The notes under the pieces: generated by a model
What the model was told of the DNA's origin: nothing
Database searches by the model: none
What the model saw: the letters and a program-made list of their open reading frames with translations, nothing else
Program-made: the position numbers and the translations under genes
In this document: piece by piece, positions 30,328 through 57,063 of the stretch
How the letters are laid out: every line of letters starts with the position of its first letter
Numbering within the stretch: the first letter of the stretch is position 1
Assembly: GCA_003649205.1 (NCBI GenBank)
Contig: QMRC01000002.1
Coordinates: forward strand, 128,001-192,000
Direction of reading: 5' to 3'
Length of the DNA stretch: 64,000 nt
Origin: Thermoprotei archaeon
Lineage (GTDB): Archaea > Thermoproteota > Thermoprotei > Thermoproteales > B15-G16

Positions 30328-30420
30328 GGGGCCGTCGTCTAGCCTGGACTAGGATGCCAGCCTGGGGAGAAACCCCGCCCAGAACGCTGGTGAGCCCGGG
30401 TTCAAATCCCGGCGGCCCCA
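30328..30420 (+). tRNA. tRNA-Pro(GGG) with 17-nt intron at 37/38 (30368-30384)
   Basis: Acceptor stem GGGGCCG/CGGCCCC, anticodon stem CCAGC/GCTGG, T arm GGTTCAAATCC, BHB helix CTGG/CCAG. Confidence 0.93.
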
Positions 30421-30455
30421 GGGGAGTACCGGGGTCAAACCCGGACTCCCCGCCA
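30421..30455 (+). ncRNA. tRNA-like minihelix ending in G-CCA
   Basis: GGGGAGT-A-CCGGG-GTCAAA-CCCGG-ACTCCCC-G-CCA: 7-bp plus 5-bp stems. Confidence 0.6.
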
Positions 30456-30472: not shown

Positions 30473-31678
30473 TTAATCTCTCCCCAGAAAGTCAATAGCT
30501 TGCCTCACGTGTCGTGCTAAGTCATCGAGACCAAATACTATACTAAGCCGCTGTAGTCTTTCAAGCCACTCGACGTGATGTCTACTCGCCCGGAATTCAG
30601 CAAAATACTTCCTATACTTCTCTGAATGATAATAATGAACTCTTTCAGCTGGTACCTTAAGGAGGTTAACTGCTAGCTCTTTGAACGGCTCTACCTGTCC
30701 TAGTCCTACACATCTTACAATGACGTACTTCTTGCCACACTTCCTCCTAACTAAATATATTCTAACTCTCTCCTGAAGTAATTTTCTCAAGTCATCTCGA
30801 CTGAGCCCTACACCCTTGATAATCCTCAGTTTAGCATTTCGTCTTCTATGCCTCAACTCCATGAGATAGAGGAGACAGTTTTTGCGCATGTGCTCTATTG
30901 AGAATCTTATCCTGAAGTACCTACTTGGTCTCCAATTCTCTTTTATTTCACCTAGGGTGTAGTCTATGTACTTCATTTCTTTGAGTTTCTCTAAGACCTG
31001 TAGGATAGGTCGTAGCTTATGTTCACTACATCTAACGTAAATTGAGCAATGTACCCAGCCATGTTTATCCATGCGTACATTAACCGTGCCATCTCCGTCT
31101 ACTAGACCTGATAAGAATTCAGCAACTTCATAGTAGGTATTAGGAAAGCAAACAACTCCTCTTCTTAGGCAGGTCACGATAGTAGTAACTTCTGGATCTT
31201 TAACTCTTAGGTACAACATGGGTTTTACTTCGTGAGGTAACACGTGTATACATCCAAGTCTAACATAGAGTCTTGGGTATGTCTTCAGTAGTATTGCACA
31301 GAGCTCCTTGTCTGTACTAGCAAAGCGTATGTATGGTCCCAACACAGAACCATCGGTCAGTGCTAATCCCACTCTATACCATACGTTGCTCATTGAAGTA
31401 TTCTTTACAGTGATTTCCTCAACGAACTTACTGAATTCTCTCCTTAAGTACACTACCCTCTCATTGATGCAGTACCTAGCACTACGTGTCCTCGATCTAG
31501 CCACTATAACCAAAGAAGGTATATGTTTTATCTGCTCTCTCAGTTCTCTCGCTTTTTGCTTTAGTTGTTCTAGCTCTTCTTTGGTGAAGTATCTGTGTAT
31601 TAACTCCATTACTTTGCTATGTAGTTTCTCTACGAATTCATCTATTTCATCGTACTTGATGGTGATTCTCGATTTCAC
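30473..31678 (-). CDS. free-standing double-motif LAGLIDADG endonuclease-like protein
   Basis: VGLALTDGS and FLSGLVDGDG; basic composition; no intein termini. Confidence 0.8.
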   Translation of the reverse strand: MKSRITIKYDEIDEFVEKLHSKVMELIHRYFTKEELEQLKQKARELREQIKHIPSLVIVARSRTRSARYCINERVVYLRREFSKFVEEITVKNTSMSNVWYRVGLALTDGSVLGPYIRFASTDKELCAILLKTYPRLYVRLGCIHVLPHEVKPMLYLRVKDPEVTTIVTCLRRGVVCFPNTYYEVAEFLSGLVDGDGTVNVRMDKHGWVHCSIYVRCSEHKLRPILQVLEKLKEMKYIDYTLGEIKENWRPSRYFRIRFSIEHMRKNCLLYLMELRHRRRNAKLRIIKGVGLSRDDLRKLLQERVRIYLVRRKCGKKYVIVRCVGLGQVEPFKELAVNLLKVPAERVHYYHSEKYRKYFAEFRASRHHVEWLERLQRLSIVFGLDDLARHVRQAIDFLGRD

Positions 31679-32441: not shown

Positions 32442-32897
32442 CTAGCTCATGGCTTTGCCTCTCCTCTCGAGCTTCTTCGAGATCCATCCTTCATTTACTT
32501 CTACTAGTTCCCATTCCTTCTTGAATTCTTGAAAGTACTTCTTGGCTTCTATCCAGAATCCATTGTCGTACACTACAATACCGTGTTCGAGGGCATCTAG
32601 TACTGCTATGTCGAAGTTCTTTAGTGCTGTGTAGAACTCGTCTTCTGTGTATATCCATGGTTGTACCATTGGGGTGTGGGGCATAAGCTTGAATCTCTCT
32701 AATCCCTTTGGTGCTGATTTGAGTACGATGAGGATATCTATATCGCTCCAAGGTTTCCAGCATCCTCTAGCTCTAGAGCCAAATACCACTATTGACCTAA
32801 CGTTACTTCCTAGTCTCTTCAGTACTTCATCCCTAAACTTCAGTACGTAGACTCTGACATCTGTACCGAGTTCATCAGTACCTAAGTACTTAAGCAC
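32442..32897 (-). CDS. MNT nucleotidyltransferase antitoxin
   Basis: VFGSRARG..SDIDIL. Confidence 0.9.
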   Translation of the reverse strand: MLKYLGTDELGTDVRVYVLKFRDEVLKRLGSNVRSIVVFGSRARGCWKPWSDIDILIVLKSAPKGLERFKLMPHTPMVQPWIYTEDEFYTALKNFDIAVLDALEHGIVVYDNGFWIEAKKYFQEFKKEWELVEVNEGWISKKLERRGKAMS

Positions 32898-33265
32898 CTC
32901 ATCACCTCCGATACAACTTTTCTAGCTAATTCAATAGCTTTCTTAGCTACTGTCTCCGTGTACTCGATTCCATATCTCTTCCTAGCGTCAGGATAACGTG
33001 AAGCGTAGTAGTGTATCGTCAATTCTCTAAGCTCTTCATCACTCACTGTTAGCTCTAGTCCATATGCTCTAGCTCTTGAGTACAGTAGACATAGGTCATG
33101 TATTCTGAGGAAGTTGCCATGACGTAATAGGTATGCTTTGAGAATGTGTTGAATAGCTTGTTCAGCGTGAAAGCAAGCATATGCGTAATCTCCTACATAA
33201 TACCTCTCCTCTGCTCTCTTGAGCTCTGAGCGACTACTCTCAATCCAGTCCTCTACTGTAGCCAT
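32882..33265 (-). CDS. HEPN toxin
   Basis: ACFHAEQA..LKA, HDL, YYASRYPD. Confidence 0.9.
   Translation of the reverse strand: MATVEDWIESSRSELKRAEERYYVGDYAYACFHAEQAIQHILKAYLLRHGNFLRIHDLCLLYSRARAYGLELTVSDEELRELTIHYYASRYPDARKRYGIEYTETVAKKAIELARKVVSEVMRCLST

Positions 33266-56942: not shown

Positions 56943-57063
<121 letters not shown>

What the first reader, a model, noticed from the sequence alone, without database searches (positions are those of the whole stretch)
30421..30455. CCA-ending tRNA minihelix fused directly to the tRNA-Pro discriminator
Seen: with no spacer after A73 comes GGGGAGT-A-CCGGG-GTCAAA-CCCGG-ACTCCCC-G-CCA. This is a perfect 7-bp acceptor-like stem on a 5-bp T-like stem, with no D or anticodon arm. 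Its acceptor sequence differs from tRNA-Pro yet pairs fully, which a simple att-site duplication would not give. Known: minihelices are substrates for RNase P, the CCA enzyme and some synthetases. Inference: one cut would both mature the tRNA-Pro 3' end and release a 35-nt tRNA mimic (decoy for anticodon nucleases or aminoacyl carrier). Alternatively it is a 32-nt hairpin inserted between A73 and the original CCA.
Basis: partly seen in the sequence, partly recalled or inferred. Interest (0 to 1): 0.75.

Follow-up and report, generated by a model that had tools for sequence, protein, structure and literature searches.

The report
tRNA-top-half hairpin with endonuclease gene
Two essential tRNA genes of an uncultured heat-loving archaeon carry a small hairpin that mimics the top half of a tRNA, wedged in just before their CCA end, and each sits next to its own copy of a selfish-type DNA-cutting enzyme gene, which suggests a new way for such elements to sit in tRNA genes without harming them.

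Summary
At 30421-30455, directly after A73 of an intron-containing tRNA-Pro(GGG), lies a 7-bp + 5-bp hairpin followed by G-CCA (-26.3 kcal/mol, z -4.5).

It is not unique. The only tRNA-His gene of the genome carries a second copy at the same junction. That copy has an identical 16-nt T-arm-like hairpin and G-CCA, but a different outer stem that still pairs fully (4 pairs changed on both sides, 0 broken).

In 44 of 58 T-arm motif matches, CCA follows the discriminator directly, so the hairpin reads as an insert between N73 and the encoded CCA.

Each copy is followed by one of the genome's only two close paralogs (33% identical) of a ~400-aa double-motif LAGLIDADG homing-endonuclease-like gene. 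Distant relatives of this gene lie in or beside initiator-tRNA introns in other archaea.

The module was found only in one Thermoproteales genus: 2 of 120 class genomes, and 1 of 11 metagenome pattern hits.

Best reading (about 0.55): a t-element-like tRNA top-half mimic that lets an endonuclease-linked insertion sit in a tRNA gene harmlessly. RNase Z or RNase P would cut at N73 and CCA would then be added. No RNA data exist.

The scan has noted minihelix RNAs behind tRNA genes before, on phage and bacterial DNA, but not this one.

The parts
30328..30420 (+). tRNA-Pro(GGG) gene, ending at discriminator A73. It is the only gene for this isoacceptor in the assembly.
   Evidence: Rfam RF00005, 48.1 bits. 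The anticodon was read by hand.
30368..30384 (+). 17-nt canonical (37/38) bulge-helix-bulge intron of tRNA-Pro
   Evidence: The Rfam alignment has a 20-nt insert in the anticodon loop. The BHB (CTGG/CCAG central helix, bulges GGA and AAC) was read by hand. Orthologues in relatives have an intron at the same place.
30421..30427 (+). 5' strand of the acceptor-like outer stem (7 nt)
   Evidence: Fold. Covariance-model alignment with the His copy.
30428..30428 (+). Single unpaired A on the 5' side, where the D and anticodon arms would leave a real tRNA. The His copy has 3 nt here.
30429..30444 (+). T-arm-like hairpin: 5-bp stem and 6-nt loop GTCAAA. It is identical (16 of 16) in the His copy.
   Evidence: This exact 16-mer occurs only twice in the genome. 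It is the only shared DNA between the two loci besides the real T-arm.
30445..30451 (+). 3' strand of the acceptor-like outer stem
30452..30455 (+). Unpaired G followed by CCA. It serves as discriminator and CCA for the hairpin, and is probably the tRNA gene's original encoded CCA.
   Evidence: Genome-wide pattern of encoded CCA. The same G-CCA occurs in the His copy.
30473..31678 (-). 401-aa double-motif LAGLIDADG homing-endonuclease-like gene, convergent with the tRNA. Its stop codon lies 18 nt after the CCA.
   Evidence: Pfam LAGLIDADG_3. 33% identical paralog beside tRNA-His. These are the only two in the genome. AF2 model with pLDDT 81, best PDB match I-Tsp061I.

Best explanation
The hairpin is a selected mimic of the tRNA top half (acceptor stem plus T arm). 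In function it resembles a t-element. It sits between the discriminator base and the genomically encoded CCA of the sole tRNA-Pro(GGG) and sole tRNA-His genes of one uncultured Thermoproteales genus.

Each copy belongs with its own paralog of a LAGLIDADG homing-endonuclease-like gene. I read the pair as a selfish, endonuclease-linked insertion whose RNA part makes it harmless.

Proposed steps:
1. The tRNA promoter gives a transcript of pre-tRNA, hairpin, CCA and trailer.
2. RNase Z cuts after N73, because no CCA follows it. Alternatively, RNase P cuts at the 5' base of the hairpin. Both act on the same bond.
3. The CCA-adding enzyme completes the tRNA.
4. The hairpin, which has its own acceptor stem and G-CCA, is trimmed after its CCA and released as a 35-nt (Pro) or 39-nt (His) RNA.
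5. At the DNA level, the insert splits the N73/CCA junction. I infer that this junction is, or once was, the endonuclease's target, so the occupied gene would be immune.

Shown: the anatomy, the second copy with compensatory changes, the exclusive pairing with the two paralogs, the presence of the enzymes, and the narrow distribution.

Inferred: transcription, the cuts, the release of the hairpin RNA, any endonuclease activity and its target.
For: Structure and second copy:
- The fold is -26.3 kcal/mol with z -4.5.
- The second copy follows C73 of tRNA-His at G000:C14:51-89.
- Its 16-nt T-like hairpin and G-CCA are identical. In its outer stem, 4 of 7 aligned pairs are changed on both sides and none is broken.
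- A covariance model built from the Pro copy alone finds the His copy at 29.3 bits (E 4.5e-4 per genome). It finds nothing else in the genome except the Pro copy's own antisense strand, at E 0.9.
- The two loci share no other DNA apart from the real T-arm, although their protein genes have drifted to 33% identity. The hairpin is therefore under constraint.
- The unpaired bases lie only on the 5' side, as in a tRNA stripped of positions 8-48.
- The loop keeps the letters T, C, A, A where a T-loop has positions 55-58.

Genome context:
- In 44 of 58 T-arm motif matches CCA follows N73 directly.
- Four real tRNA(-like) genes have no encoded CCA, so cutting at N73 followed by CCA addition must already work in this cell.
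- The genome has RNase Z (321 bits, above the cut-off), a class-I CCA-adding enzyme and RNase P RNA (112 bits).
- Both tRNAs are single-copy isoacceptors, so the insert must be processed correctly.

Literature:
- Archaeal RNase Z cuts after the discriminator in CCA-less precursors and after CCA in CCA-containing ones. It needs only the acceptor stem (PMC7479834, abstract).

Link to the endonuclease gene:
- tblastn finds only two close paralogs, and each lies within 200 nt of a hairpin.
- Both LAGLIDADG aspartates are invariant in 22 sequences.
- The AF2 model best matches the archaeal intron endonuclease I-Tsp061I.
- In 3 of 9 distant loci the relative lies in or beside an initiator-tRNA gene, antisense inside a ~1.3-kb intron in two of them. 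A further 3 of 6 loci carry tRNA genes.

Reality of the DNA: it occurs in G000, G001, a metagenome contig and contigs from three runs.
Against: - There is no RNA evidence of any kind.
- The helix is 12 bp in the Pro copy but 13 bp in the His copy, with bulges of 1 and 3 nt. That is awkward for enzymes that measure from the T-loop.
- The loop has 6 nt rather than 7, with G at the position of U54. It is not a canonical T-loop.
- All pairs are Watson-Crick, so the antisense strand or single-stranded DNA would fold equally well. The strand is inferred only from the tRNA's orientation, the G-CCA tail and the loop letters.
- With RNase Z and a CCA-adding enzyme present, any insert after N73 might be tolerated. 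The strict conservation of the T-like hairpin therefore needs a reason that the model only guesses at (RNase P recognition or clean release).
- The endonuclease gene lies outside the insert, and its orientation relative to the tRNA differs between the two loci (minus in Pro, plus in His). The two parts do not form a simple movable unit.
- No empty-site allele or joint was seen in four DNA runs.
- There are only two independent copies, from one genus.
Confidence: 0.55

Rival explanations
1. DNA-level element only. The palindrome would be a recognition, immunity or repair scar of the LAGLIDADG endonuclease, or a hairpin used in its mobility. It would have no role as RNA, and the tRNA would simply tolerate it.
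For: All stem pairs are Watson-Crick, so double- or single-stranded DNA forms the same structure. It is strictly paired with the endonuclease paralogs. Any insert after N73 could be removed by RNase Z.
Against: A protein site on duplex DNA does not explain an outer stem that changed completely yet stayed fully paired. Nor does it explain the bulge lying only on the 5' side, the T-loop-like letters, or the conserved unpaired G before CCA. The fixed orientation relative to the tRNA, while the endonuclease gene is flipped, points to the transcript.
Confidence: 0.15
2. A new kind of terminal intron. The 32-36-nt hairpin would be cut out and A73/C73 ligated to the encoded CCA, so the encoded CCA would be the one used.
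For: The insert lies exactly between N73 and a CCA that is followed by a trailer typical of this genome. The order is rich in non-canonical tRNA introns (for example L022). Relatives of the neighbouring gene live in tRNA introns.
Against: No bulge-helix-bulge can be drawn at the two junctions. The four bases before the would-be 5' bulge (GCCC) do not pair with the four before the 3' bulge (TCCC), and the hairpin pairs with itself, leaving one free base next to the acceptor stem (hand reading; fold). No enzyme is known that would join a 3-nt exon.
Confidence: 0.1
3. The released CCA-ended minihelix is itself the product that matters. It would be a small RNA that is charged, caps or titrates a tRNA-binding enzyme, or acts as a decoy for tRNA-targeting nucleases.
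For: The encoded G-CCA and T-like loop are conserved more strictly than simple removal would need. The first four pairs of the Pro copy equal those of tRNA-Pro, and the His copy has an 8-bp stem, as tRNA-His does. Minihelices are substrates of synthetases, RNase P and the CCA enzyme (PMC4033280, passages).
Against: Nothing found bears on charging or on any target. The discriminator is G in both copies, unlike A73 of tRNA-Pro and C73 of tRNA-His. There are only two copies in one genus, and each is tied to a selfish-type gene.
Confidence: 0.1
4. The LAGLIDADG protein is a maturase-like or regulator-like binder of the hairpin (RNA or DNA) and not a nuclease. It would help or control processing of these two tRNAs.
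For: The fold search also hits the bI3 maturase and WhiA, which are LAGLIDADG proteins without nuclease roles. The protein has about 90 extra residues at the N end and about 140 at the C end. Protein and hairpin occur one-to-one.
Against: Both catalytic-position aspartates are invariant in 22 sequences. The best structural matches are active homing endonucleases. The constant part of the hairpin is the same for two proteins that are only 33% identical.
Confidence: 0.07
5. A chance hairpin, or a plain 3' stabiliser or terminator hairpin, with no link to tRNA mimicry.
For: Loose minihelix-shaped hairpins are as common in the genome as in a reversed control (17 against 19). The same 16-mer occurs as ordinary hairpins in unrelated phage and bacterial contigs.
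Against: Two copies lie at the same single-base junction of two tRNAs, with an identical core and a compensated outer stem. They are conserved in a second species and in metagenomes. No other tRNA gene of the genome has such a hairpin.
Confidence: 0.03

Closest known systems
t-elements: tRNA-like processing signals of plant mitochondria (PMC1920247, seen as search listing and start of abstract) and the natural t-element upstream of 5S rRNA in Haloferax volcanii (PMC4326828, passages)
   Same: A partial tRNA shape, without decoding function, that tells RNase P and RNase Z where to cut and so defines the end of the neighbouring RNA. An archaeal precedent exists.
   Different: Here the element defines the 3' end of a tRNA. 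It sits exactly between the discriminator and the encoded CCA, it is only a 12-13-bp top half with its own G-CCA, and it is tied to a homing-endonuclease-like gene.
mascRNA / MEN-beta tRNA-like RNAs (Rfam RF01684; the biology is recalled, not read here)
   Same: RNase P cutting at the 5' side of a tRNA-like structure makes the 3' end of the upstream RNA and frees a small RNA that carries CCA.
   Different: Those are eukaryotic cloverleaf-like RNAs behind long non-coding RNAs, with CCA added after transcription. The weak RF01684 match lies on the tRNA itself, not on the hairpin.
Synthetic acceptor/T-arm minihelices (Francklyn and Schimmel; as described in PMC4033280, passages)
   Same: A 12-bp acceptor plus T-stem helix ending in N-CCA. 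This is the part of a tRNA that RNase P, the CCA-adding enzyme and many synthetases recognise.
   Different: This one is natural and genomically encoded. Its loop has 6 nt with G in place of U54, it has a 1-3-nt bulge at the stem junction, and the His copy has 13 bp.
Archaeal bulge-helix-bulge introns that carry LAGLIDADG homing endonuclease genes (I-Tsp061I, I-DmoI type), and the tRNA-intron-borne relatives seen
   Same: A LAGLIDADG gene is linked to an insert in a stable-RNA gene, and host RNA-processing enzymes remove the insert so that the host gene still works.
   Different: There is no BHB motif and no splicing. The gene lies outside the insert, and removal would be by end-processing plus CCA addition.
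Free-standing homing endonuclease genes next to tRNA genes (phage T4 SegB; PMC13096335, seen as listing and start of abstract). Also the scan's own unchecked note e1-2103304 on a GIY-YIG element with a hairpin after the CCA of bacterial tRNA genes.
   Same: A nuclease gene beside tRNA genes, with a structured piece at the tRNA's 3' end.
   Different: A different nuclease family and domain of life. Here the hairpin lies before the CCA and mimics a tRNA top half.

Membership tests
Canonical tRNA (Rfam RF00005) | Cloverleaf with D arm and anticodon arm | tested here: not met
   With a permissive E-value, the tRNA model matches only 30328-30420 and not the hairpin. ARAGORN calls nothing there.
t-element / tRNA-like processing signal | Acceptor-like stem coaxial with a T-arm-like hairpin, next to the end of another RNA | tested here: met
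   Fold and structural alignment of the two copies. The element starts at the base after N73.
t-element / tRNA-like processing signal | Cut by RNase P and/or RNase Z in the cell | not testable with these tools
   The enzymes are encoded, but no RNA run was listed.
Acceptor/T-arm minihelix (12 bp, 7-nt T-loop, N-CCA) | 7-bp + 5-bp helix ending in an unpaired N and CCA | tested here: met
   The Pro copy meets it exactly. The His copy has 8 + 5 bp.
Acceptor/T-arm minihelix (12 bp, 7-nt T-loop, N-CCA) | Canonical 7-nt T-loop (U54 U55 C56 R57 A58 N N) | tested here: not met
   The loop is GTCAAA, 6 nt. The letters at positions 55-58 are kept, position 54 is G, and one of positions 59/60 is missing.
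Acceptor/T-arm minihelix (12 bp, 7-nt T-loop, N-CCA) | Substrate for aminoacylation or the CCA enzyme | not testable with these tools
   No computation bears on it.
Archaeal BHB intron | Two 3-nt bulges around a 4-bp helix at the two junctions | tested here: not met
   Hand reading: GCCC before the 5' junction cannot pair with TCCC before the 3' junction. The MFE fold shows a closed hairpin with one free base. The same gene's real intron does show the motif.
att-site duplicate left by an integrase | Direct repeat of the tRNA's own 3' part, with an integrase gene nearby | tested here: not met
   The acceptor strands differ from those of tRNA-Pro and tRNA-His. No integrase was found among ten neighbouring ORFs. 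True 3'-half duplicates elsewhere in the genome look different.
Deletion remnant of another host tRNA | Acceptor ends equal to those of an existing tRNA gene | tested here: not met
   The 3' strands plus G-CCA occur once each in the 94%-complete assembly.
LAGLIDADG homing endonuclease (the neighbouring gene) | Two LAGLIDADG helices with conserved acidic residues, and the alpha-beta-beta-alpha-beta-beta-alpha fold | tested here: met
   Pfam PF14528. D109 and D196 are invariant in 22 sequences. AF2 model with pLDDT 81, top PDB matches I-Tsp061I and I-OnuI.
LAGLIDADG homing endonuclease (the neighbouring gene) | Site-specific DNA cleavage and homing into empty sites | not testable with these tools
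   No empty-site allele or joint was seen in four DNA runs. The distribution is patchy.
LAGLIDADG homing endonuclease (the neighbouring gene) | Encoded inside an intron or intein | tested here: not met
   Both genes stand free downstream of the CCA. Distant relatives do lie inside initiator-tRNA introns.

The most novel reading that the evidence does not exclude
This would be a new class of selfish insertion in tRNA genes. A homing-endonuclease-linked 'minihelix cassette' occupies the discriminator/CCA junction. It is removed by the tRNA end-processing enzymes (RNase Z or RNase P, then the CCA-adding enzyme) and not by splicing. Removal releases the first known natural, genomically encoded CCA-ended minihelix RNA, and this RNA may itself be charged or bound by tRNA enzymes.
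Probability: 0.35. Interest if true: 0.8.

Novelty: new variant of a known kind. Interest (0 to 1): 0.62.

Why it matters
If the model holds, end-processing can play the role that splicing plays for introns. A selfish endonuclease could then park in an essential tRNA gene by bringing a piece of RNA that the host's own RNase Z or RNase P and CCA enzyme clean away. That would add a third route, beside BHB introns and split genes, by which archaeal tRNA genes become disrupted.

It would also provide a natural minihelix, an object so far known mainly as a synthetic substrate and as a hypothetical ancestor of tRNA. The natural example has two variants that could be used directly in assays with RNase P, RNase Z, the CCA enzyme and synthetases.

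It also gives a concrete target hypothesis for an uncharacterised LAGLIDADG family, namely the 3' end of tRNA genes.

Tried and rejected
**Readings rejected**
- BHB intron at 73/74: no motif can be drawn.
- att duplicate, or deletion remnant of a host tRNA: rejected.

**More copies by exact pattern**
- The 16-mer with up to 1 mismatch matched 3 of 41 relatives. Two were G000 and G001; the third was an unrelated hit in G017.
- The 16-mer plus N7-8 plus GCCA matched 2 of 120 class genomes.
- It matched 11 metagenome stretches. Only 1 is the element (the Pro copy); 10 are chance hits in G+C-rich contigs.
- It matched 25 viral stretches, none of them minihelix-like.

**More copies by covariance model R1**
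- In 120 class genomes I examined 15 further hits. 13 are T-arms of ordinary tRNA genes and 2 are unrelated hairpins.
- In 151 phylum genomes there were 2 weak hits, with no tRNA nearby.

**Relatives of the protein**
- The word-indexed search found only the G001 orthologue.
- The full HMMER search gave 32 hits, 2 of them close.
- No relative was found in viral contigs.
- No close relative was found in 401 phylum genomes.

**Other checks**
- Synteny of the empty site: seven window proteins searched against 22 relatives' tRNA-Pro loci gave no hit, so the boundaries of the insertion could not be set.
- Shared genes between the two loci: only the LAGLIDADG gene.
- Expression: no RNA holder was listed.
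- Four DNA runs, held as contigs, gave no joint that skips the hairpin or the gene. The two listed joints (30354 to 30393 or 30395) are low-likeness matches of other tRNAs.
- The MAFFT alignment A3 of the two copies was structurally wrong, so I did not use it.
- Literature searches found no description of a hairpin between discriminator and CCA, nor of a LAGLIDADG gene tied to one. Supplementary files were not seen.

Full report
**What is there**

The window is G000:C2:128001-192000, from a 2.07-Mb, 31-contig, 43% G+C assembly. A sister assembly's record title calls it an uncultured Thermoproteales archaeon.

Rfam places a tRNA at 30328-30420 (48.1 bits). It is tRNA-Pro(GGG) with a 17-nt canonical intron at 30368-30384. 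The intron's bulge-helix-bulge can be drawn by hand. Orthologues in same-order genomes have the same body and intron position.

The 35-mer folds at -26.3 kcal/mol, with z -4.5 against 200 shuffles, none of which folds as well. It forms the same hairpin inside the 143-nt context.

**It is an insert before the encoded CCA**

I scanned the genome for T-arm-like motifs followed by seven bases and a discriminator, which gave 58 matches.
- 44 have CCA directly after N73.
- 6 of the other 14 have no matching 5' acceptor strand and are not tRNAs.
- 3 are one tRNA-His gene. It appears twice in the palindromic contig C3 and once at the start of C14.
- 1 is tRNA-Pro(GGG).
- 4 are tRNA or tRNA-like genes with no encoded CCA: tRNA-Arg(TCG), and three genes with a GGGGG T-stem.

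In this organism, then, CCA is normally encoded. The two exceptions, Pro(GGG) and His, have a hairpin between N73 and a CCA that is followed by a trailer of the usual kind. The four genes without CCA show that cutting at N73 followed by CCA addition must already operate.

**The second copy**

A DNA search of the genome with the tRNA plus hairpin found G000:C14:20-98. This is the 3' half of tRNA-His(GTG) followed, right after C73, by an 8-bp outer stem, three unpaired bases, the same 16-nt inner hairpin, then G and CCA.
- The exact 16-mer occurs only at these two places in the genome.
- A covariance model made from the Pro copy alone scores the His copy at 29.3 bits (E 4.5e-4 per genome). It finds nothing else except the Pro copy's own antisense strand at E 0.9.
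- In its alignment, 4 of 7 outer pairs differ on both sides and none is broken.
- A short-word BLAST of the two loci finds only the real T-arm (24 nt) and this 16-mer in common.

Both copies are present, letter for letter, in the other species of the genus (G001). The Pro copy is also in one metagenome contig. Logan contigs from three runs span the tRNA and hairpin, and two of them continue through the neighbouring gene. So the DNA is real.

**The neighbour**

Eighteen bases after the CCA, on the other strand, ends a 401-aa ORF (30473-31678) with a LAGLIDADG_3 match. About 200 bases after the His copy's CCA, on the same strand as the tRNA, starts a 399-aa ORF with the same Pfam match.
- The two proteins are 33% identical over 323 residues (E 4e-39).
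- tblastn finds no third copy in the genome.
- tblastx of 8 kb around the Pro locus against the His loci finds nothing else shared.

Two hairpins and two paralogs, each pair within 200 nt in a 2-Mb genome, cannot be coincidence.

The family is very small.
- A word-indexed search of 5.8 billion proteins found only the G001 orthologue.
- A full profile search of 1.84 billion representatives gave 32 hits at E up to 1e-3. Only 2 of them are close, the Pro-linked and His-linked clusters.
- A profile search of 401 genomes of the phylum gave no close relative. The best other hit scored 46 bits against 760.

Both LAGLIDADG aspartates are invariant in an alignment of 22 sequences. The AlphaFold model (pLDDT 81) is most like the archaeal intron-encoded endonuclease I-Tsp061I, followed by I-OnuI-type enzymes. 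The bI3 maturase and WhiA appear lower in the list.

**The wider family goes with tRNA genes**

Nine distant loci were fetched from Desulfurococcales and Thermoprotei MAGs.
- In 3 of the 9 (L052, L053, L056) the gene lies at an initiator tRNA-Met gene.
- In L053 and L056 it lies antisense inside an intron of about 1.3 kb whose ends pair over 16 bases.
- Of six further distant loci, 3 carry tRNA genes within the roughly 1.5-kb flanks.

I checked that note only to this extent.

**Distribution**

- The hairpin pattern was found in 2 of 120 genomes of the class, both in the one genus.
- The covariance model's other hits in those 120 genomes were ordinary tRNA T-arms (13 of 15 examined) or unrelated hairpins (2 of 15).
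- 151 more genomes of the phylum gave two weak hits with no tRNA nearby.
- Relatives' tRNA-Pro(GGG) genes run from A73 straight into CCA or a trailer.

These are samples. I can say 'not found in those searched', not 'absent'.

**How it most likely works**

The genome encodes RNase Z (321 bits, over the curated cut-off), a class-I CCA-adding enzyme and RNase P RNA (112 bits).

Published work on two methanogen RNase Z enzymes reports three relevant properties (PMC7479834, abstract only):
- They cut just after the discriminator when no CCA follows.
- They cut after the CCA when one is encoded.
- They accept precursors that lack the D, T or anticodon arm, provided the acceptor stem is present.

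In Haloferax, tRNA-like t-elements are cut by RNase P and tRNase Z, and a natural t-element defines the 5' end of 5S rRNA (PMC4326828, passages).

Applied here, RNase Z would cut after A73 or C73, because GG follows and not CCA. RNase P, reading the hairpin as an acceptor/T-arm substrate, would cut the same bond. The CCA enzyme would then finish the tRNA. The hairpin, which has its own acceptor stem and G-CCA, would be trimmed after its CCA and released. Both tRNAs are the only genes for their anticodons, so this must work well. All of these steps are inferred; none has been observed.

**Why a tRNA-like hairpin, and why the endonuclease?**

My reading is that the two parts form one selfish unit, comparable to an intron with its homing endonuclease gene. 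The endonuclease would target the uninterrupted 3' end of the tRNA gene. The insert would split that site and so protect the occupied gene. The insert's tRNA-like shape would guarantee clean removal by the end-processing enzymes.

Four facts do not fit neatly:
- The gene lies outside the insert, and it is flipped between the two loci.
- No empty allele was seen.
- With RNase Z present, the strict conservation of the T-like hairpin is more than mere tolerance would need.
- The helix is 12 bp in one copy and 13 bp in the other, and the loop is not a canonical T-loop.

Because every pair is Watson-Crick, a DNA-level structure cannot be excluded. I therefore put the main reading at about 0.55 and keep five rivals:
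- a DNA-only element (0.15);
- a non-BHB terminal intron (0.10);
- a small RNA that functions in its own right (0.10);
- a maturase-like partnership (0.07);
- chance, or a plain stabiliser hairpin (0.03).

**Comparison with what is known**

In function it is closest to t-elements and to the mascRNA principle. My knowledge of mascRNA is recalled, and the weak RF01684 match lies on the tRNA, not on the hairpin. In shape it is closest to the synthetic acceptor/T-arm minihelices discussed in PMC4033280 (passages). That review treats minihelices as laboratory substrates and hypothetical ancestors, not as genes.

In genetic logic it is closest to archaeal introns with LAGLIDADG genes, but it fails the BHB test. 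Five literature searches found no description of a hairpin between discriminator and CCA, or of a LAGLIDADG gene tied to one.

Earlier notes of this scan describe minihelix RNA genes in phage tRNA arrays and a GIY-YIG element with a hairpin after the CCA of bacterial tRNA genes. These are unchecked AI notes on other DNA, and I used them only as analogies.

**Verdict**

This is a real, conserved, two-copy module that I judge to be a new variant of a known kind: a tRNA-like processing signal combined with a homing-endonuclease-associated insert. It is narrow in distribution, has no expression data, and is directly testable.

Noticed in passing
G000:C3 (whole contig, centre near 145714): Contig C3 is a perfect palindrome. 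tRNA genes and RNase P RNA appear twice in mirror positions around the tRNA-His T-arm. This is almost certainly an assembly fold-back at the palindromic tRNA-His/hairpin region. The true continuation is C14:1-98.
   Followed up: partly
G000:C1:29038-29111, C4:26137-26304, C12:49812-49912: Three tRNA(-like) genes with a GGGGG/CCCCC T-stem have no encoded CCA. They share an identical trailer (TCATTTACTCAT...) and about 50 further conserved bases. ARAGORN gives them three different identities, two of them with introns. They may be the missing Tyr/Trp/Met genes or a repeated tRNA-like element.
   Followed up: no
L052, L053, L056 (Desulfurococcales MAG loci), just after the initiator tRNA-Met CCA: Within 0-6 bases after the encoded CCA comes a conserved 18-nt piece, GTGGGGGCCCCGCC(A/G)CCA, which repeats the tRNA's last bases and ends in a second CCA before a T-run. 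It occurs in three different MAGs whose initiator tRNA gene holds a LAGLIDADG gene.
   Followed up: no
G000:C5:~35761 (-) and C9:~18603 (-): These are orphan copies of the 3' halves of tRNA-Asn and tRNA-Thr, with CCA and the same trailer as the full genes a few kb away. This is the classic signature of integrated elements at tRNA genes.
   Followed up: no
window 32442-33265 (-): Overlapping HEPN (127 aa) and minimal nucleotidyltransferase (151 aa) genes form a HEPN-MNT type toxin-antitoxin pair. They lie two genes beyond the LAGLIDADG gene.
   Followed up: no
window 56946-57063 (-): The second tRNA of the window (57.5 bits) is tRNA-Thr(TGT) with a 44-nt intron by ARAGORN. Its CCA is encoded directly and there is no hairpin.
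   Followed up: no
G000:C2:248163-248480 (+), outside the window: A more distant member of the same LAGLIDADG family (351-aa frame) lies about 400 nt upstream of a cluster of tRNA-Val(GAC), tRNA-Pro(CGG) and tRNA-Lys(TTT). Those tRNAs have normal CCA ends.
   Followed up: partly
L022 (G008:C1:~1504864): The tRNA-Pro(GGG) orthologue of a same-order genome has a second, non-canonical insert inside its T-arm. This shows how freely this order places introns in this gene.
   Followed up: no
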